The translations under genes were made by a program, and so were the position numbers. This document shows, in pieces, positions 20,974-26,072 of a stretch of 54,395 bases of DNA. Within the stretch, counting starts at the first letter, position 1. The number at the start of each line of letters is the position of its first letter. The DNA is taken from the NCBI GenBank assembly GCA_964618485.1, contig CAZUBB010000001.1:1-54395 (forward strand), given 5' to 3'. The stretch comes from an uncultured Pirellulales bacterium (lineage in GTDB: Bacteria > Planctomycetota > Planctomycetia > Pirellulales > JALHLM01). The notes beneath the pieces are model-generated. The model had not been told where the DNA came from and ran no database searches. It saw only the letters and a list, made by a program, of their open reading frames with translations.

Positions 20974-23334
20974 GTGAGCCGTACGACGCCCTCCTGGAAT
21001 CTACCGGGCGTCGGGTGGCCGTCTGCAGCGCCGCATGAAGCGGTGAGTGCTGCGACGCCTCGCGACGCCCTACGAACCGCCGGTCGCCTCCGACCGGACG
21101 GGGTGCCGTTCGCCGATGATCGGGTCACCGCCGGCTCGGAAACGGAACTGCAAGTCGCTGTGCAGGGGCGCGCCGATGCCGTCGATCTGCCGCTGATGAT
21201 CGCGGCGAGCCGGTTTTACGCGAATCTGTTGAAGCGTTCCACCGCCAAAGACACGCCGAAGAAGGCGCTCCGCGAGCTGCAGCGCATTCTTCGCGATGAG
21301 CGCGGCGGCGTGTGGGAGAATAGCTGGGTGCGTTTTTCGCGCGAGCGGCTGTCTCCGGCGGCGCAACGGCAACTCGACCGCGATTTGCGAGTCTCGCGCA
21401 GCGATCCGCGCAGCGGGCGGCGCAGCGACGCGGAACGATTTAGCGCGATCTCGCCGGATGGCTCGAGCGGATTGCGGTTGCCTTTGAGCTACGTGATCAA
21501 TCTCGCGCTGACCGATTATCTGGCGACCGATCTGCGGATTCCGGGGGACATGCGCCACTGGTGCGCGGGACTGCAGCGGCATCTGATCAGCGACAATGTG
21601 TCGCCGGAGACGTGTTCGTTCTATGTCTCGGCTCTGGCCGGCGGCAACGAGGGAGGTCGCCGATTGGCGCGCGAGACGGCCGAACGGTTTCTGCTGACGC
21701 ATCTGCTCGTGGCGTATGCCAATCAGACGTTCGGCCTGCTCGCGAGCGGACAACGAGCGATCGTACACTTCTCACCGCATACTCCGTGGCGACAACGGCA
21801 ACTCAATGAATGCATCTCCGACGCGTTTTACCGGGAGTTGTTTACGAGTCCCTGTCTGTCGGGTTGGGACCGAGGCGAAGACAAGCACGCGTACATGCGG
21901 CTGTGTCACGAGGTGCTCAGCCGGAGCCAGTTGTACGCGGCGGCGAAGGTGCGGGACGCCGGGCTGATCGCGACCGACCTGTTGATGTTGCCGAGCTTCA
22001 GCAGTACGAGTCTCTCCAACAACGGCATTCACGTGAGCCTGGGCAGCCGTCGCCTGGCGGAGATCGCGGAAGAGCGCGGCGCGGCCGAGGAGAAGCGGCT
22101 CGGGGACCTCGTCACGAAGATCGTCGAACATTTTCTGCCGCTGTTTATCGGCACTTACAGCGCGGCGCCCTGTCGGATCGACTTCGCGGATTTTCATGCG
22201 GAACGCGTGCTAGGTTTCCTGCCGCACGAGTTGGATTACACGCACCTGCGGATGTTGTGGCGGCGCTGGAAGCGGAAGGCCGGAGTAACGCTGTTCGGGC
22301 AGCCGCTGACGCCCACGGGTTTGCCGTGGGTCGATCAGTCGTTGGCAGTTTTGTTTCGGTTGCGCGGCGACTTCGTGCCGGATTGCCGGTTGCTCGACTA
22401 TCTGGTGGCGCCTCTTTCGACTGATGAAAGCCCCGCGTTCGACGGCACGCCCGGCAACGTGGAGCGGCTCAAGCACGACCTGGCGATCATGGGCATTTAT
22501 GACGAGCGGATGTCGTTCTATGCCTTGTATCGGCAGCGCGTCGTGGGGAAAGCCGGTTACGCAGGGTACGAGGCGCGCTACTACAGTTTGTGCACGAGCC
22601 TGCTGGACGACCTGGGGCCGGCGACTGATTTGCAGCGGTTGGTCACCGCGTGGGCGTTCCAACGGGCGCTGTCGGGCGAGATTACGCATCGCGATATTCC
22701 GGACGATCCAGTGACCGAGAGCGAGCGGCGGCAGATTGTCTTTGGCGGGGCGGTCGATGTGCCGACGTTTTTTGCGAGGGAATCGACGCCGAACCAGTTG
22801 CTGCGCGAACTGATGGCCGGCGCCGCCGCTACGCGCGCCAGCCGGCGCTACCCGGGCTACGTGCGAATTGAGCATCAGCAGTATCGGCTGTCGCTGCTGA
22901 ACACGTTGCGCAAAGACGAGGCGCTCGTGGAGATGCTCGGTGTGACGGACATGCTGGCGGATTTGGAGCAGCGGTTGCGCGATCCGGGGCGGCATTCGGC
23001 CGCGGGACAAATTACGAACAACATCCTGGACCGGCTGGGCGTGCGCTCGGCGATGTCGGTAAGCGCGCGGGAGTTTAACCAGGAGGCCGAGCGTTACTAT
23101 CGCGAGGATCTGCGGCGGAGTTATTTGCGCGAGGCGGTGGATTCGATTTTCGATGCGTCCTCGTCGGCGCCGGATCATCTCCGCTGGGTCGCGCGGCGAT
23201 CGATGGACGACGCCGCCAATCCGGCGGAGCTGAGCGACCTGTTAAGGACCGTGCTCGGCGTGATTCACCGGCGGGCGCACGAGCCGTTTGCCGTGCATGA
23301 AACCGCGTTTGATGTTCCGGGAGCGCCGCGATGA
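20974..23334 (+). CDS. Large (786 aa) soluble Arg-rich protein of unknown function; first gene of a four-gene operon
   Basis: GTG start at 20974. The stop overlaps the next start (ATGA at 23331-23334). There are no TM segments and no family motif I can name. The segment NNGIHVSLGS...VEHFLPLFIGTYSAAPCRI...GFLPHE is faintly reminiscent of GCL/GS-fold carboxylate-amine ligases; this is very tentative. Confidence 0.7.
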   Translation: MSRTTPSWNLPGVGWPSAAPHEAVSAATPRDALRTAGRLRPDGVPFADDRVTAGSETELQVAVQGRADAVDLPLMIAASRFYANLLKRSTAKDTPKKALRELQRILRDERGGVWENSWVRFSRERLSPAAQRQLDRDLRVSRSDPRSGRRSDAERFSAISPDGSSGLRLPLSYVINLALTDYLATDLRIPGDMRHWCAGLQRHLISDNVSPETCSFYVSALAGGNEGGRRLARETAERFLLTHLLVAYANQTFGLLASGQRAIVHFSPHTPWRQRQLNECISDAFYRELFTSPCLSGWDRGEDKHAYMRLCHEVLSRSQLYAAAKVRDAGLIATDLLMLPSFSSTSLSNNGIHVSLGSRRLAEIAEERGAAEEKRLGDLVTKIVEHFLPLFIGTYSAAPCRIDFADFHAERVLGFLPHELDYTHLRMLWRRWKRKAGVTLFGQPLTPTGLPWVDQSLAVLFRLRGDFVPDCRLLDYLVAPLSTDESPAFDGTPGNVERLKHDLAIMGIYDERMSFYALYRQRVVGKAGYAGYEARYYSLCTSLLDDLGPATDLQRLVTAWAFQRALSGEITHRDIPDDPVTESERRQIVFGGAVDVPTFFARESTPNQLLRELMAGAAATRASRRYPGYVRIEHQQYRLSLLNTLRKDEALVEMLGVTDMLADLEQRLRDPGRHSAAGQITNNILDRLGVRSAMSVSAREFNQEAERYYREDLRRSYLREAVDSIFDASSSAPDHLRWVARRSMDDAANPAELSDLLRTVLGVIHRRAHEPFAVHETAFDVPGAPR

Positions 23335-24371
23335 CGACAGCGCATCAATTCATCGAGCGATTGACTGGTACGGTTCGCGATGAGCCGTTGTACGGCGACC
23401 GGTGGATTCGCTGCTTATACTCGCCGGCGCTTGAGCGCAGCGGCGCGCTGTTCGCGATGCTCACTGGCCGGCGGTGGAGCCGGTGGATCGCGAGTTGGAA
23501 TTACGACTCGCTGCTGGGGCAGCGCTTCAGCGGCGGGCGGCGCTTTCTGCGGGACATGGCGGTCGATGTAGCGGAATGCCTCGATCCGCCGGAGTCGCTC
23601 GATACGTTGCGGAAGATTTTTGAGCGGCGGATTTGCTATTGGGACTGCCGCCCTATGCCTGAGGATGAACGGACGATTGTGTCTCCGAGCGATGCGCGGA
23701 TGCTGCATGGATCGTTGCGGGAATCATCGCAGCTTTATCTGAAAGAGAAGTTTTTTGATTACGGCGAATTGTTGGGGAGCGAATCGCGATGGCTCGAGAC
23801 GTTTCGCGACGGCGACGCGGCGGTGTTTCGGCTGACGCCGGAGAAGTATCACTACAATCATTGTCCGGTCTCGGGGCGCGTGGCGGCGATTTATCGCGTG
23901 GACGGGCGGTTTCATGCCTGCAATCCGGCGGCGGCGGTGGCCGTGATTACGCCGTACTCGAAGAACGAGCGCGTCGTGACGATCATTGATACCGACGTTC
24001 CGGGGGGAACCGGCGTCGGCAAGGTTGCGATGGTCGAGGTGGCGGCGATGATGATCGGCGATATCGTGCAGGCCTATTGCGCTGCGCGCTACGACGCGCC
24101 GCGCAACATCGAGCCCGGCATGTGGCTGGAGCGGGGGCAGCCGAAGAGCTTGTTCCGGCCAGGGGCGAGCACCGTTGTGCTGCTGTTCGAACGCGGGCGG
24201 GTGGCCTTCGCGGATGATCTCGTGGCGAATCTGCGCCGGCCGGTGCGGAGCCGTTATGCGCTTGGTCTGGGCGTTTCGCTGACGGAAACGGACGTGGCGG
24301 CGCGATCGTTGATCGCGCACGCGGCGAGCGGCGTAGGCGCTTACATGTGCAAACTAGGAGAAACGACGTGA
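23331..24371 (+). CDS. Phosphatidylserine decarboxylase-family protein (atypical GAST processing site)
   Basis: 346 aa. The PSD motif set appears in canonical order: VSPSDA (for SPxDG), RLTPEKYHYNHCPVSG (for RLxPxDYHRxHxPxxG), SKNERVV, VEVAAMMIGDI and LFRPGASTVVLLFE (for GSTV). Confidence 0.8.
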   Translation: MTTAHQFIERLTGTVRDEPLYGDRWIRCLYSPALERSGALFAMLTGRRWSRWIASWNYDSLLGQRFSGGRRFLRDMAVDVAECLDPPESLDTLRKIFERRICYWDCRPMPEDERTIVSPSDARMLHGSLRESSQLYLKEKFFDYGELLGSESRWLETFRDGDAAVFRLTPEKYHYNHCPVSGRVAAIYRVDGRFHACNPAAAVAVITPYSKNERVVTIIDTDVPGGTGVGKVAMVEVAAMMIGDIVQAYCAARYDAPRNIEPGMWLERGQPKSLFRPGASTVVLLFERGRVAFADDLVANLRRPVRSRYALGLGVSLTETDVAARSLIAHAASGVGAYMCKLGETT

Positions 24372-25396: not shown

Positions 25397-25451
25397 GCGC
25401 GGCGCTAAGTTCTTTCTTGCTGTACTTTCCGTCCCGCCGCGAGGAATCATC

Positions 25452-26072
25452 GTGAGTCTTGCCACCGATCGCACCGTGAAACCGGACGCGCCGCGCGTGT
25501 CGTTTCTGAGCAAGTTCCGGCAGCATGGCATGCAGGTGGCCATGTTGCGGCCGTCGAGCGCCTATCTGGCGCGGGCGCATTGCGCCTTCGTCACTCCGGA
25601 GCGTCCGCAGACGATCATCGAGCTCGGCGCCGGGACCGGGCCGGTGACCGAGGCGGTTTGCGAGCGGATGCATCCGGAATCGCGGTTGTTTGCGCTGGAG
25701 ATCGACGCGGATTTCGCCGCGGTGCTGCGGGAGCGATGCCCTCGGGCGACGGTGCTGGTGGAGGACGCCGGCAATCTGATCGACATCGCGGTGCGGCATC
25801 ACATCGAGCGGATCGACGTGATGATCTCCTGCCTGGCGCTGCCGTACATTCCGCGCCGCGCCGTGGCGGCGATCTTCGGCGCGTTCGCTGCGCTGGGGAG
25901 CGAGGGGTGGTTCACGCAGCAGACGCTGGTGCCGCTCGTGTACCGGAGGATGTACACGCGGATGTTCGAAGAAGTGCGGTTTCGCGGCGTGGCGCGGAAT
26001 CTTCCGCCTGGGGGCGTGTATCATTGCCGGCGTTTGCGGCCGATGTATCGCGATGTGCTTCCAGGACGATGA
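25452..26072 (+). CDS. Class I SAM-dependent methyltransferase, phospholipid N-methyltransferase-like (COG3963 type)
   Basis: N-terminal FLSKFRQHGMQVAMLRPSSAYLARAH, SAM motif I IIELGAGTGPVTEAV, then LFALEIDADFAAVLRERCPRATVLVEDAGNL. The chosen start is GTG 25452, preceded by GAGGA at 25441-25445. The tracked ORF start (25248) would overlap the previous gene by 149 nt. Confidence 0.7.
   Translation: MSLATDRTVKPDAPRVSFLSKFRQHGMQVAMLRPSSAYLARAHCAFVTPERPQTIIELGAGTGPVTEAVCERMHPESRLFALEIDADFAAVLRERCPRATVLVEDAGNLIDIAVRHHIERIDVMISCLALPYIPRRAVAAIFGAFAALGSEGWFTQQTLVPLVYRRMYTRMFEEVRFRGVARNLPPGGVYHCRRLRPMYRDVLPGR

What the first reader, a model, noticed from the sequence alone, without database searches (positions are those of the whole stretch)
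20974..26072. Translationally coupled four-gene operon: 786-aa orphan protein, PSD-like decarboxylase, Lgt-like transferase and PmtA-like methyltransferase
Four same-strand ORFs are tightly packed. There is an ATGA start/stop overlap at 23331-23334 and a GTGA overlap at 24368-24371 (or a 25-nt overlap if GTG 24347 is used). A 55-nt gap then leads to GAGGA-n6-GTG at 25452. Three products belong to lipid-handling families: phosphatidylserine decarboxylase (all motifs in order), Lgt-type diacylglyceryl transferase (GRLGCISFGCCYG) and COG3963-type phospholipid N-methyltransferase (PSSAYLARAH...ELGAGTG). The first and largest product has no motif I can assign. The textbook PS->PE->PC route needs only Pss, Psd and PmtA, so the Lgt-like enzyme and the 786-aa protein do not fit it. 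A transferase plus decarboxylase plus N-methylase is the logic expected for building a methylated amino head group on a diacylglycerol-derived anchor, possibly a phosphorus-free or otherwise unusual lipid. Planctomycetes are known for unusual methylated aminolipids, but these genes are not OlsB/OlsA/OlsF-like. The operon sits directly behind the giant Rhs gene, so a link to that protein cannot be excluded.
Basis: partly seen in the sequence, partly recalled or inferred. Interest (0 to 1): 0.75.

Follow-up and report, generated by a model that had tools for sequence, protein, structure and literature searches.

The report
Operon for phosphorus-free sulfur aminolipid
These four genes are a planctomycete version of a widespread, uncharacterised three-gene cassette, tied in relatives to phosphate starvation; it most likely builds a phosphorus-free, cysteine-linked membrane lipid, and the fourth gene would then methylate that lipid.

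Summary
The four + strand genes and their junctions are as described. The 786-aa protein is not an orphan. It belongs to a highly conserved family (about 50-60% identity across phyla) found in more than 586 species representatives. In about 90% of loci with enough sequence it is followed by the same PSD-like and Lgt-like genes.

A high-confidence AlphaFold model of it matches glutamate-cysteine ligase, YbdK and PafA, which are ATP-dependent carboxylate-amine ligases. The methyltransferase is OlsG-like. It is an accessory gene, recruited in three different arrangements.

In relatives the cassette lies beside PhoR/PhoB, PstS, PhnC, PsiE, Ppk, phospholipase C, phytase and 5'-nucleotidase genes. 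In Geobacterales it carries a tandem 11-bp-repeat, Pho-box-like operator, shared with a PHP-GT4 glycosyltransferase gene.

Ligase plus thiol diacylglyceryl transfer plus decarboxylation predicts N-(4-aminobutanoyl)-S-diacylglyceryl-cysteine. Its head-group ion, C7H13N2O3S+ (205.0641), equals the diagnostic ion of the "butyramide cysteine glycerol" lipids that Desulfatibacillum makes under phosphate limitation (PNAS 2024). The library I searched names no genes for those lipids.

The link is inferred. I could not check the Desulfatibacillum genome. The adjacency to the Rhs gene is not conserved.

The parts
20831..20973 (+). Upstream intergenic region, presumed promoter. It holds short blocks (GAACTGA, CTAACCGA) shared with two relatives.
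   Evidence: Alignment with L086 and L087. No sigma-70-like site. No tandem ACA-repeat operator of the Geobacterales type.
20974..23334 (+). Gene 1: 786-aa soluble protein of an unnamed, highly conserved family. Predicted ATP-dependent carboxylate-amine ligase with a GCL/YbdK/PafA-like fold and a helical C-terminal extension.
   Evidence: No Pfam or NCBIfam hit. Thousands of homologues. AF2 model with pLDDT 85 and pTM 0.90. The top nine Foldseek hits are all carboxylate-amine ligases or their close relatives. E56 and E58 in GSETELQ are nearly invariant and H353 is invariant. The GTG start block is conserved in relatives.
23331..24371 (+). Gene 2: PSD-family pyruvoyl-type decarboxylase paralogue (346 aa). 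The predicted pyruvoyl precursor is Ser280, in PGAST.
   Evidence: PF02666 at 135.6 bits, but below every NCBIfam PSD equivalog cut-off. Aligns to E. coli PSD 6L06/7CNW. D121, H174, H177, S280 and T281 are conserved in 67-69 of 69 sequences.
24368..25396 (+). Gene 3: divergent Lgt-family polytopic membrane protein. Signature G-R-L-G-C-I-S-F-G-C-C-Y-G with three invariant cysteines. Predicted diacylglyceryl transferase to a small-molecule thiol.
   Evidence: PF01790 at 35.7 bits, far below the lgt equivalog cut-offs. Motif conservation. Motif-on-motif alignment with E. coli Lgt. AGGAG ribosome-binding site upstream of GTG 24368.
25387..25407 (+). Weak hairpin across the gene 3 stop codon. Not a convincing terminator.
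   Evidence: 9 terminator-like sites found against 6.2 +/- 2.3 in shuffles.
25452..26072 (+). Gene 4: 206-aa SAM-dependent lipid N-methyltransferase, OlsG-like. An accessory to the three-gene cassette.
   Evidence: NF041658 OlsG 158.9 bits (cut-off 350), PmtA 47 bits. GAGGA-n6-GTG. Closest homologues are cassette-linked. More distant ones are OlsF-linked.

Best explanation
**Proposal.** The region encodes a head-group pathway for a phosphorus-free, sulfur-containing glycerolipid of the "butyramide cysteine glycerol" (BACys) type. The fourth gene adds N-methylation.

**Proposed steps** (all chemistry is inferred from the enzyme families; the order of steps is not settled):
1. Gene 1, a GCL/PafA-fold ATP-dependent ligase, joins the gamma-carboxyl of glutamate to the amine of cysteine. 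The cysteine may be free or already lipid-bound.
2. Gene 3, an Lgt-family membrane enzyme, transfers the diacylglyceryl group of phosphatidylglycerol to the cysteine thiol, as Lgt does for lipoproteins. This makes a thioether and releases glycerol-1-phosphate, whose phosphate can be recovered.
3. Gene 2, a PSD-family pyruvoyl decarboxylase, removes the alpha-carboxyl of the gamma-glutamyl residue. The product is N-(4-aminobutanoyl)-S-diacylglyceryl-cysteine.
4. In this planctomycete, gene 4 (OlsG-like) methylates the terminal aminopropyl amine. That amine has the same local structure as the delta-amine of ornithine lipid. Up to three methyl groups would give a betaine-type lipid.

**Regulation.** In Geobacterales relatives the cassette appears to be switched on by phosphate starvation. 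This is shown only by gene neighbourhood and operator evidence, not by expression data. For the window organism itself it is only suggested.
For: **Conserved cassette.** The three genes are contiguous and on one strand in 62/70 genome loci and 44/48 metagenome loci. These span Desulfuromonadales, Syntrophales, Desulfomonilaceae, Acidobacteriota, Nitrospiraceae, Brocadia, Phycisphaerae, Victivallales and Heliomicrobium.

**Gene 1 fold.** The top nine Foldseek hits are E. coli gamma-GCS (probability 0.41-0.95), PafA (0.87-0.90) and a YbdK homologue (0.97). The earlier, lower-quality model gave the same fold class.

**Gene 2.** It keeps the PSD catalytic Asp, the two His and the Ser-Thr cleavage site.

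**Gene 3.** It keeps the equivalents of Lgt R143, G154, R239, E243 and R246.

**Phosphate link.**
- Recurrent neighbours are PhoR-like kinase, PhoB (291 bits against a cut-off of 296), PstS family, PhnC, Zn phospholipase C, PsiE, Ppk1, a phytase-like gene, 5'-nucleotidase and a phosphonate transporter.
- A 4 x 11-bp [ATC]ACA repeat has 15 hits in 1.18 Mb. Ten are directly upstream of gene 1 homologues and three are upstream of the PHP-GT4 gene.
- This was replicated on the independent metagenome set: 15 of 23 three-unit hits lie upstream of gene 1 homologues.

**Product match.**
- Ding et al. 2024 (PMC11181052) report that D. alkenivorans under phosphate limitation replaces PE, PG and CL with GlcA lipids and BACys lipids. 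The BACys head-group ion is m/z 205.064, C7H13O3N2S+.
- The ion predicted from the three enzyme chemistries is C7H13N2O3S+ = 205.0641.
- The co-regulated GT4 gene parallels the co-induced glycolipid.

**Methyltransferase.**
- It is linked to the cassette in three independent arrangements.
- Its more distant homologues sit next to OlsF.
- This fits a lipid-bound terminal aminopropyl amine as substrate.
Against: - I could not verify that D. alkenivorans carries the cassette.
- The BACys structure is itself tentative, resting on MS2 only. An isomer, N-(gamma-glutamyl)-S-diacylglyceryl-cysteamine, has the same formula.
- The GCL link is structural only. The best Foldseek E-value is 0.04 and TM-scores are 0.3-0.47. 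There is no Pfam or hhalign signal.
- The Lgt relationship is remote. The family profile misses Lgt in the PDB and hhalign gives a probability of 2%. The positions of N146 and E151 hold cysteine.
- By homology the Lgt active site faces the periplasm, while an ATP-dependent ligase is cytoplasmic. Export or flipping is therefore needed and is unexplained.
- The window itself has no tandem-repeat operator and no phosphate genes nearby.
- The window decarboxylase reads PGAST where 68 of 69 relatives read PGSST.
Confidence: 0.55

Rival explanations
1. Same cassette and same phosphate-starvation role, but a different product or order of steps.
- Option (a): the Lgt-like enzyme makes S-diacylglyceryl-cysteine, the phosphate-free isostere of phosphatidylserine. 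The PSD-like enzyme turns it into S-diacylglyceryl-cysteamine, a PE analogue. Gene 1 then gamma-glutamylates it, or the methyltransferase makes a thiocholine-type lipid.
For: PSD-family enzymes normally act on lipid-bound serine-like head groups. The gamma-Glu-cysteamine isomer has the same formula, C7H13N2O3S+ (my calculation). OlsG can methylate PE (review PMC12971839).
Against: The published MS2 reading places the carboxyl on the cysteine part ("butyramide + cysteine"). The methyltransferase family is closer to OlsG than to PmtA, which favours a terminal aminopropyl amine. Option (b) leaves the ligase without a role and does not explain a sulfur-containing lipid.
Confidence: 0.2
2. The cassette makes a soluble or protein-bound product rather than a bulk membrane lipid. 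One example is a gamma-glutamyl-cysteine-derived thiol or polyamine-like metabolite. Another is a PafA-like tagging plus Lgt-like lipidation system acting on a protein.
For: PafA and Dop are among the structural matches. Lgt's known substrates are proteins. PSD-family members can act on soluble amino acids (PsiD, from my own knowledge). A GGACT-like gamma-glutamyl cyclotransferase gene neighbours the cassette in 6 genome and 9 metagenome loci.
Against: No conserved candidate substrate protein or Pup-like gene lies next to the cassette. The neighbours are lipid-remodelling genes: Zn phospholipase C, a GT4 lipid-glycosyltransferase-like gene, and lipid N-methyltransferases.
Confidence: 0.1
3. 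Ordinary housekeeping genes: a PS-to-PE-to-PC phospholipid route (Psd, PmtA) lying next to the lipoprotein enzyme Lgt and a hypothetical protein.
For: Pfam names the domains PS_Dcarbxylase and LGT. Some sources annotate homologues of the methyltransferase as phospholipid N-methyltransferase.
Against: All three score far below the NCBIfam equivalog cut-offs: 127 against 371, 35 against 334, and 47 against 250. The Lgt signature asparagine and glutamate are replaced by invariant cysteines. The strict linkage to an 800-aa ligase-like protein across phyla has no place in the textbook route. The operator and neighbours point to a starvation response.
Confidence: 0.03

Closest known systems
Lgt, phosphatidylglycerol:prolipoprotein diacylglyceryl transferase (PF01790; E. 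coli structures 5AZB/5AZC)
   Same: Pfam membership for the window protein. Similar K/R loop pattern to E. coli Lgt. Conserved equivalents of R143, G154, R239, E243 and R246. The proposed chemistry is the same: diacylglyceryl transfer from PG to a cysteine thiol, releasing glycerol-1-phosphate.
   Different: Very remote in sequence. N146, N149 and E151 are replaced by C, F and C, giving three invariant cysteines. Always encoded after the ligase-like and PSD-like genes. The proposed acceptor is a small molecule, not a lipobox protein. It fails the lgt equivalog cut-offs.
Phosphatidylserine decarboxylase (Psd; PF02666; E. coli 6L06/7CNW)
   Same: The domain, the Asp-His-Ser autocleavage residues and the Ser-Thr pyruvoyl site.
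   Different: Cleavage motif is PG(S/A)ST instead of LGST. Scores are below all PSD and archaetidylserine decarboxylase equivalog cut-offs. The proposed substrate is a gamma-glutamyl (or S-diacylglyceryl-cysteine) head group rather than PS.
Glutamate-cysteine ligase GshA, YbdK and the Pup ligase PafA (carboxylate-amine ligase superfamily)
   Same: Best structural matches. An acidic E-x-E pair on the first long strand. The proposed ATP-dependent amide formation with a glutamate gamma-carboxyl.
   Different: No detectable sequence similarity. About 300 extra residues, largely helical. An isolated family with only a few dozen full-length 50%-identity clusters.
OlsG (ornithine lipid N-methyltransferase, Singulisphaera) and PmtA
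   Same: Best NCBIfam match. SAM-binding motif. Homologues at about 50% identity sit next to OlsF.
   Different: Below the OlsG cut-off (159 against 350). Linked here to the cassette, not to OlsB, OlsF or OlsH. The proposed substrate is the 4-aminobutanoyl amine of a thioether lipid.
Known phosphate-starvation lipid-remodelling systems: BtaA/BtaB (DGTS), PlcP-Agt (glycolipids), OlsBA/OlsF
   Same: Phosphate-linked neighbourhood in relatives. Replacement of phospholipids by phosphorus-free lipids. A head-group N-methylation step as in BtaB. A phospholipase C plus GT4 partner as in PlcP-Agt.
   Different: Entirely different enzyme families. A thioether rather than an ether, glycosidic or amide link. 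Phosphatidylglycerol, rather than free diacylglycerol, is the proposed direct donor.
BACys lipids of Desulfatibacillum alkenivorans (Ding et al. 2024, PMC11181052)
   Same: The predicted head group has the same elemental formula. Both are specific to phosphate limitation. A glycolipid is co-produced.
   Different: That paper reports lipids only, with no genes, and the structure is tentative. Here there are genes only, with no lipid data. The window organism is a planctomycete and adds a methyltransferase.

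Membership tests
Phosphatidylserine decarboxylase family (PF02666) | Domain score above the Pfam gathering threshold | tested here: met
   135.6 bits against 22
Phosphatidylserine decarboxylase family (PF02666) | Asp-His-Ser autocleavage residues and a Gly-Ser-Thr-type pyruvoyl site | tested here: met
   D121, H174, H177, S280 and T281 are conserved in 67-69 of 69 sequences. The motif is PGSST in relatives and PGAST here.
Phosphatidylserine decarboxylase family (PF02666) | Equivalog-level identity with a true Psd or Asd | tested here: not met
   Best is NF001941 at 127 bits against a cut-off of 371. TIGR00163 scores 80.7 against 111.75.
Lgt (PF01790) | Domain score above the Pfam gathering threshold | tested here: met
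   35.7 bits against 24.9 for the window protein. Relatives are only 'weak' or 'faint'.
Lgt (PF01790) | Lgt signature GRxGNFxNGExxG with N146 and E151 | tested here: not met
   The sequence is GRLGCISFGCCYG. R and the glycines are kept, while N146, N149 and E151 become C, F and C. C167, C172 and C173 are invariant in 64 of 64 sequences.
Lgt (PF01790) | Second arginine motif (R239, E243, R246) | tested here: inconclusive
   R256, E260 and R263 are invariant in the family and align to these residues, but the hhalign probability is only 2%.
Lgt (PF01790) | Equivalog-level identity with housekeeping Lgt, acting on lipobox proteins | tested here: not met
   34.6 against 334 and 19.4 against 118.9. 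The family profile does not find Lgt in the PDB. Substrate specificity is not testable here.
Carboxylate-amine ligase superfamily (GCL, YbdK, PafA) | Shared fold | tested here: inconclusive
   The top nine Foldseek hits all belong to it, with probability 0.41-0.97. But E >= 0.04 and TM-scores are 0.30-0.47.
Carboxylate-amine ligase superfamily (GCL, YbdK, PafA) | Sequence-family membership (PF04262, PF04107) | tested here: not met
   No Pfam hit for any of 32 members at E <= 10. hhalign against E. coli GshA and YbdK finds nothing.
Carboxylate-amine ligase superfamily (GCL, YbdK, PafA) | Acidic metal-binding pair on the first strand; ATP-dependent ligation | tested here: inconclusive
   E56-x-E58 is nearly invariant on strand 51-58. 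Equating it with the GCL/PafA motif rests on my own knowledge. Activity is not testable here.
OlsG/PmtA lipid N-methyltransferases | OlsG equivalog score | tested here: not met
   158.9 bits against a cut-off of 350, although OlsG is the best hit and PmtA scores only 47.
OlsG/PmtA lipid N-methyltransferases | Linkage to ornithine-lipid synthase genes | tested here: not met
   The window gene and its closest homologues follow the cassette. Only homologues at about 50% identity follow OlsF-like genes.
Pho regulon | Tandem direct-repeat operator with 11-bp period upstream of the operon | tested here: not met
   Absent from the window. Present and strongly enriched upstream of gene 1 homologues in Geobacterales-type loci. 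That it binds PhoB is an inference.
Pho regulon | Induction by phosphate limitation | not testable with these tools
   Neighbourhood evidence only.
BACys lipid pathway (lipids of Ding et al. 2024) | Predicted product matches the diagnostic head-group ion | tested here: met
   C7H13N2O3S+ calculated as 205.0641, against the reported m/z 205.064, C7H13O3N2S+.
BACys lipid pathway (lipids of Ding et al. 2024) | The producing organism encodes the cassette | not tested
The seed search returned only Geobacterales-like proteins.

The most novel reading that the evidence does not exclude
An Lgt-family enzyme has been repurposed from protein lipidation to bulk membrane-lipid synthesis. Together with a previously unrecognised GCL-fold ligase and a PSD-family decarboxylase, it forms the missing biosynthetic pathway for thioether-linked, phosphorus-free cysteine aminolipids (BACys). 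The pathway converts phosphatidylglycerol directly into a sulfur lipid while releasing recoverable glycerol phosphate. It is widespread in anaerobic and soil bacteria. In Planctomycetota it is extended by N-methylation, and in Phycisphaerae by a flavin monooxygenase, to give lipids that have not yet been described.
Probability: 0.5. Interest if true: 0.9.

Novelty: categorically new. Interest (0 to 1): 0.82.

Why it matters
- It would assign genes to a new class of phosphorus-free, sulfur-containing membrane lipids. These were described only in 2024, from one sulfate reducer, with no pathway.
- It would show that this capacity is spread across Geobacter relatives, syntrophs, Acidobacteriota, anammox bacteria, Nitrospiraceae and Planctomycetota. 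That bears on phosphorus and sulfur budgets and on lipid biomarkers in sediments and soils.
- It would give the first non-protein function for the Lgt family.
- It would give a function to a large family of about 800-aa proteins that currently has no annotation.
- It would suggest a revised structure for BACys: a 4-aminobutanoyl amide on S-glyceryl cysteine.
- The S-diacylglyceryl-cysteine core is the motif by which TLR2 recognises bacterial lipoproteins (my own knowledge), so free lipids of this kind could be immunologically active.
- The hypothesis is directly testable in cultured carriers and by expression in E. coli.

Tried and rejected
- **Link to the Rhs gene.** tblastn of the 5811-aa protein against 163 related loci gave no hit. 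The relatives have other upstream genes. Rejected.
- **E. coli-type Pho box (CTGTCAT-N4-CTGTCAT).** Not enriched upstream of gene 1 homologues: 2 of 78 loci against 8 of 390 controls. It was replaced by the motif found de novo.
- **Sequence-level link of gene 1 to GCL.**
  - Pfam at E <= 10 on 32 members found nothing.
  - A profile search of the PDB found nothing.
  - hhalign against E. coli GshA and YbdK found nothing.
  - An exhaustive profile search of 1.84 billion representatives listed only family members and fragments among its best 150.
- **Lgt-like family profile against the PDB.** It missed Lgt.
- **Ornithine-lipid third pathway (OlsH/OlsI).** Read and found unrelated.
- **Myxosortase "Lgt-like" idea.** Unrelated.
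- **D. alkenivorans check.** Using a "Desulfobacteraceae"-labelled seed returned only Geobacterales-like proteins.
- **Clustering gene 1 sequences** to pick a better seed. No resolution, because the family is too conserved.
- **Operator or repeat search in the window's own upstream region.** Nothing convincing.
- **Hydropathy and K/R topology estimate.** Only a crude agreement with E. coli Lgt.
- **N'Guessan 2010 Geobacter phosphate-limitation paper.** Not held in the library.

Full report
**1. Observation**

The four + strand ORFs are real:
- 20974-23334, 786 aa, GTG start.
- 23331-24371, 346 aa.
- 24347 or 24368 to 25396.
- 25452-26072, inside a longer TTG-started ORF that begins at 25248.

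- ATGA at 23331-23334.
- GTGA at 24368-24371, preceded by AGGAG.
- A 55-nt gap, then GAGGA-n6-GTG at 25452.

The family N-terminus of the third protein (consensus MxNxLFL) fits the start at 24368. A weak hairpin spans the third stop codon. Terminator-like sites are no more frequent in the region than in shuffles.

**2. Family assignments**

- Gene 2 is a PF02666 protein (135.6 bits), but it lies below every NCBIfam PSD equivalog cut-off.
- Gene 3 passes the Pfam LGT threshold only narrowly (35.7 against 24.9) and is far below the lgt equivalog cut-offs.
- Gene 4 matches OlsG, the planctomycete ornithine-lipid N-methyltransferase, best (158.9 bits, cut-off 350). PmtA scores only 47 bits.
- Gene 1 has no Pfam or NCBIfam family.

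**3. Gene 1 is not an orphan**

- A word-indexed search found 2792 homologues among the 8000 candidates scored. The 120 listed, mostly about 800 aa, share 49-77% identity, and all lack a name and a Pfam domain.
- An exhaustive profile search of 1.84 billion cluster representatives found 884 hits (415 at E <= 1e-30). Many are fragments, so only a few dozen are full-length clusters at 50% identity. The family is compact and strongly constrained.
- In GTDB species representatives, at least 586 species encode a relative. They include Geobacteraceae and other Desulfuromonadales, Syntrophales, Desulfomonilaceae, Acidobacteriota, Nitrospiraceae, Candidatus Brocadia, Phycisphaeraceae, Victivallales and Heliomicrobium.
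- More than 100 columns are invariant across 120 sequences, including many Asp, Glu, His and Arg residues.

**4. The conserved unit is three genes**

- tblastn of the four window proteins on all fetched loci shows gene 1, then the PSD-like gene, then the Lgt-like gene, contiguous on one strand. This holds in 62 of 70 genome loci and 44 of 48 metagenome loci that have at least 2.6 kb downstream.
- Clustering of all ORFs in the first 82 loci found no other universal partner.
- No locus holds a relative of the neighbouring 5811-aa Rhs protein, so that adjacency is incidental.

**5. The methyltransferase is an accessory gene that has been recruited repeatedly**

- The closest relatives (A786 72-77% identical) have the same four-gene order (L086, L167). 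L168 shares the downstream ThuA-GSDH-PKD-CBM6 gene with the window.
- Phycisphaerae-type loci read methyltransferase, flavin monooxygenase, gene 1, PSD-like, Lgt-like (L006, L169, L170, L173).
- A third lineage has a distant OlsG/PmtA-like methyltransferase after the Lgt-like gene, followed by a PHP+GT4 glycosyltransferase (L142, L144, L146, L152).
- Homologues of the window methyltransferase at about 50% identity sit directly after OlsF-like bifunctional acyltransferases (L171, L172, L175). The family as a whole therefore methylates lipid-bound amines of the ornithine type.

**6. What the three core proteins look like**

*Gene 1.*
- With a 120-sequence alignment, AlphaFold2 gave a confident model (pLDDT 85.1, pTM 0.90).
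- Its nine best PDB matches are E. coli gamma-glutamylcysteine synthetase (E 0.04-0.15, probability 0.41-0.95), the Pup ligase PafA (probability 0.87-0.90, TM 0.46) and a YbdK homologue (probability 0.97, TM 0.45). Dop and yeast GCL come further down the list.
- The earlier, poorer model gave the same fold class.
- No hit reaches E <= 0.001 and there is no sequence-level signal. The assignment to the ATP-dependent carboxylate-amine ligase fold is therefore probable, not proven.
- A nearly invariant E56-x-E58 on the first long strand resembles the metal-binding pair of that superfamily. That resemblance rests on my own knowledge.

*Gene 2.*
- It keeps the PSD catalytic residues when aligned to E. 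coli PSD: D121, H174, H177 and a Ser-Thr site.
- The family motif is PGSST. The window protein alone has PGAST, so Ser280 is the likely pyruvoyl precursor.

*Gene 3.*
- Its invariant signature is G-E-G-x-G-R-[LM]-[AG]-C-I-S-F-G-C-C-Y-G, with a second motif W-R-x-x-S-E-x-L-R-A-D.
- A weak hhalign alignment to authentic E. coli Lgt (fetched) places these motif-on-motif on GRLGNFINGELWG and FRIIVEFFRQPD.
- R143, G154, R239, E243 and R246 are thus kept, while N146 and E151 become cysteines.
- A crude hydropathy and K/R count gives a loop pattern like that of E. coli Lgt.

**7. Phosphate-starvation context in relatives**

Recurrent neighbours (counts are from ORF clustering of the first 82 loci, unless marked):
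- a PhoR/PnpS-like kinase (15 loci);
- PhoB (13 loci; 291 bits against a cut-off of 296);
- PstS family (12 loci);
- PhnC (9 loci);
- a DUF2062 membrane protein directly after the Lgt-like gene (15 loci by clustering; 21 genome + 14 metagenome loci by tblastn);
- a zinc phospholipase C after that (13 loci by clustering; 14 + 10 by tblastn);
- PsiE, polyphosphate kinase, and a GGACT-type gamma-glutamyl cyclotransferase;
- an 810-aa PHP+GT4 glycosyltransferase (20 loci by clustering; 19 + 12 by tblastn).

Planctomycete versions lie next to a phytase-like phosphatase (L086), 5'-nucleotidases (L167, L169) and a phosphonate transporter (L173).

A de novo k-mer screen of upstream regions revealed four tandem 11-bp repeats followed by a -10-like box. 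An example is GTAACACAACA TTTACACACCG CGAACACAGCC GTCACAATTTT CATATATGAT.
- The pattern of four [ATC]ACA units at 11-bp spacing occurs 15 times in 1.18 Mb on both strands. From base frequencies I estimate about 0.05 expected by chance.
- Ten of the 15 are directly upstream of gene 1 homologues, three are upstream of the PHP-GT4 gene and one is upstream of ppk1.
- The three-unit version replicates on the independent metagenome set: 15 of 23 hits lie upstream of gene 1 homologues.
- This is the architecture of PhoB/PhoP-type Pho boxes, and it resembles the TT(A/T/C)ACA repeats of Bacillus PhoP (my own knowledge).
- The E. coli consensus itself is not enriched.
- The window has no such operator and no phosphate genes nearby. 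For this organism the regulation is inferred only from relatives.

**8. Mechanism**

Take each family's canonical chemistry at face value:
- a GCL-type ligase joins the glutamate gamma-carboxyl to the amine of cysteine;
- an Lgt-type enzyme moves diacylglyceryl from phosphatidylglycerol onto a cysteine thiol;
- a pyruvoyl decarboxylase removes the carboxyl next to a free alpha-amine.

The only such group in gamma-Glu-Cys is on the glutamyl residue. This predicts N-(4-aminobutanoyl)-S-diacylglyceryl-cysteine.

I reached this prediction before finding the relevant paper. Ding et al. 2024 (PMC11181052) report the following for Desulfatibacillum alkenivorans:
- Under phosphate limitation it replaces PE, PG and cardiolipin almost completely with glucuronosyl glycerolipids and a new class of sulfur-containing aminolipids.
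- The new class is tentatively named N-butyramide cysteine glycerols (BACys).
- It is characterised by a head-group ion at m/z 205.064, C7H13O3N2S+.
- It is absent under phosphate-sufficient conditions.
- No genes are proposed.

The sulfur-cation of 4-aminobutanoyl-cysteine is C7H13N2O3S+, calculated at 205.0641. The co-induced glycolipid parallels the co-regulated PHP-GT4 gene. Searches for BACys, for the formula and for related terms found no other relevant paper in the library. An aminolipid review does not cover these lipids.

In the window organism the OlsG-like enzyme would methylate the terminal amine of the 4-aminobutanoyl group. That amine sits on a three-carbon chain, like the delta-amine of ornithine. 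This fits the OlsF-linked relatives of the methyltransferase and the Lys/Orn-monooxygenase-like partner in Phycisphaerae.

**9. Caveats**

- The BACys link is an inference. I could not test whether D. alkenivorans carries the cassette.
- The published structure is tentative.
- An isomer has the same formula: gamma-glutamyl-S-diacylglyceryl-cysteamine. It would arise if the PSD-like enzyme acts on S-diacylglyceryl-cysteine, which is the phosphate-free isostere of phosphatidylserine.
- The order of steps is unknown.
- There is a topological problem. The ligase is cytoplasmic, while the Lgt site faces the periplasm.
- The Lgt and GCL relationships are both remote.

**10. Verdict**

The details on the orphan status, the Rhs link, PmtA and the four-gene unit are corrected.
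- The cassette is an uncharacterised, widespread system.
- I estimate about 0.85 that it is a phosphate-starvation-linked membrane head-group pathway in most carriers.
- I estimate about 0.55 that its product is the BACys-type thioether aminolipid, N-methylated in this planctomycete.
- No known lipid pathway uses this combination of enzyme families.

Noticed in passing
window 3395-20830 (+): A giant 5811-aa Rhs/YD-repeat protein with many Ig/cadherin-like repeats and a distinct C-terminal end. It lies directly upstream of the operon. No homologue occurs in 163 related loci.
   Followed up: partly
window 26309-30577 (-); L168 3665-7888: A 1421-aa ThuA + glucose/sorbosone dehydrogenase + PKD + CBM6 + cadherin-like protein. 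The same architecture lies near the methyltransferase gene in a close relative, which shows local synteny.
   Followed up: partly
window 30791-35746 (+): A 1651-aa protein that combines lamin-tail, CotH kinase and chitobiase C-terminal domains.
   Followed up: no
window about 39500-40800: GC skew changes sign at the point where gene orientation switches from + to -. This could be a strand-bias boundary or just the change of coding strand.
   Followed up: no
window 12401-20158 (-) and other long antisense ORFs: Very long 'mirror' ORFs lie opposite real genes, for example one of 2585 aa inside the Rhs gene. These are high-GC artefacts, not genes.
   Followed up: no
L014, L023, L033, L049, L052 and others (Geobacterales-type loci), just upstream of the gene 1 homologue and of the PHP-GT4 gene: Four tandem 11-bp repeats, [GT]T[AT]ACA-N5, followed by a -10-like box. 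The motif is shared by the cassette, a PHP+GT4 glycosyltransferase gene and ppk1. It is a candidate PhoB operator for this clade.
   Followed up: yes
L080 3532-5964 (-); L144 7861-10290 (+): An 810-aa fusion of a PHP phosphoesterase domain with a GT4 glycosyltransferase. It is either co-regulated with the cassette or in the same operon. It is a candidate one-protein analogue of PlcP-Agt and may be the GlcA-diacylglycerol synthase.
   Followed up: partly
L006 5329-6741 (+); L169 8695-9834; L173 7672-8826: A flavin monooxygenase (Pyr_redox_3 / Lys_Orn_oxgnase-like) lies between the methyltransferase and gene 1 in Phycisphaerae-type loci. It could N-hydroxylate the terminal amine or S-oxygenate the thioether.
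   Followed up: no
L014 6195-6626 (-) and 14 other loci: A GGACT/AIG2-type gamma-glutamyl cyclotransferase-like gene next to gene 1; in L014 it is divergent from it. This is consistent with gamma-glutamyl chemistry.
   Followed up: partly
window 20971-20989; L086; L087: The 19-nt block CCGTGAGCCGTACGACGCC around the GTG start is identical in three planctomycete loci that otherwise diverge. NCBI's own gene call (P0001, 743 aa) starts 43 codons later.
   Followed up: partly
window 24165-24170 (codons 279-280 of gene 2): The window decarboxylase has Ala at the position before the predicted pyruvoyl serine. Of the 69 family members, 68 have Ser there.
   Followed up: partly
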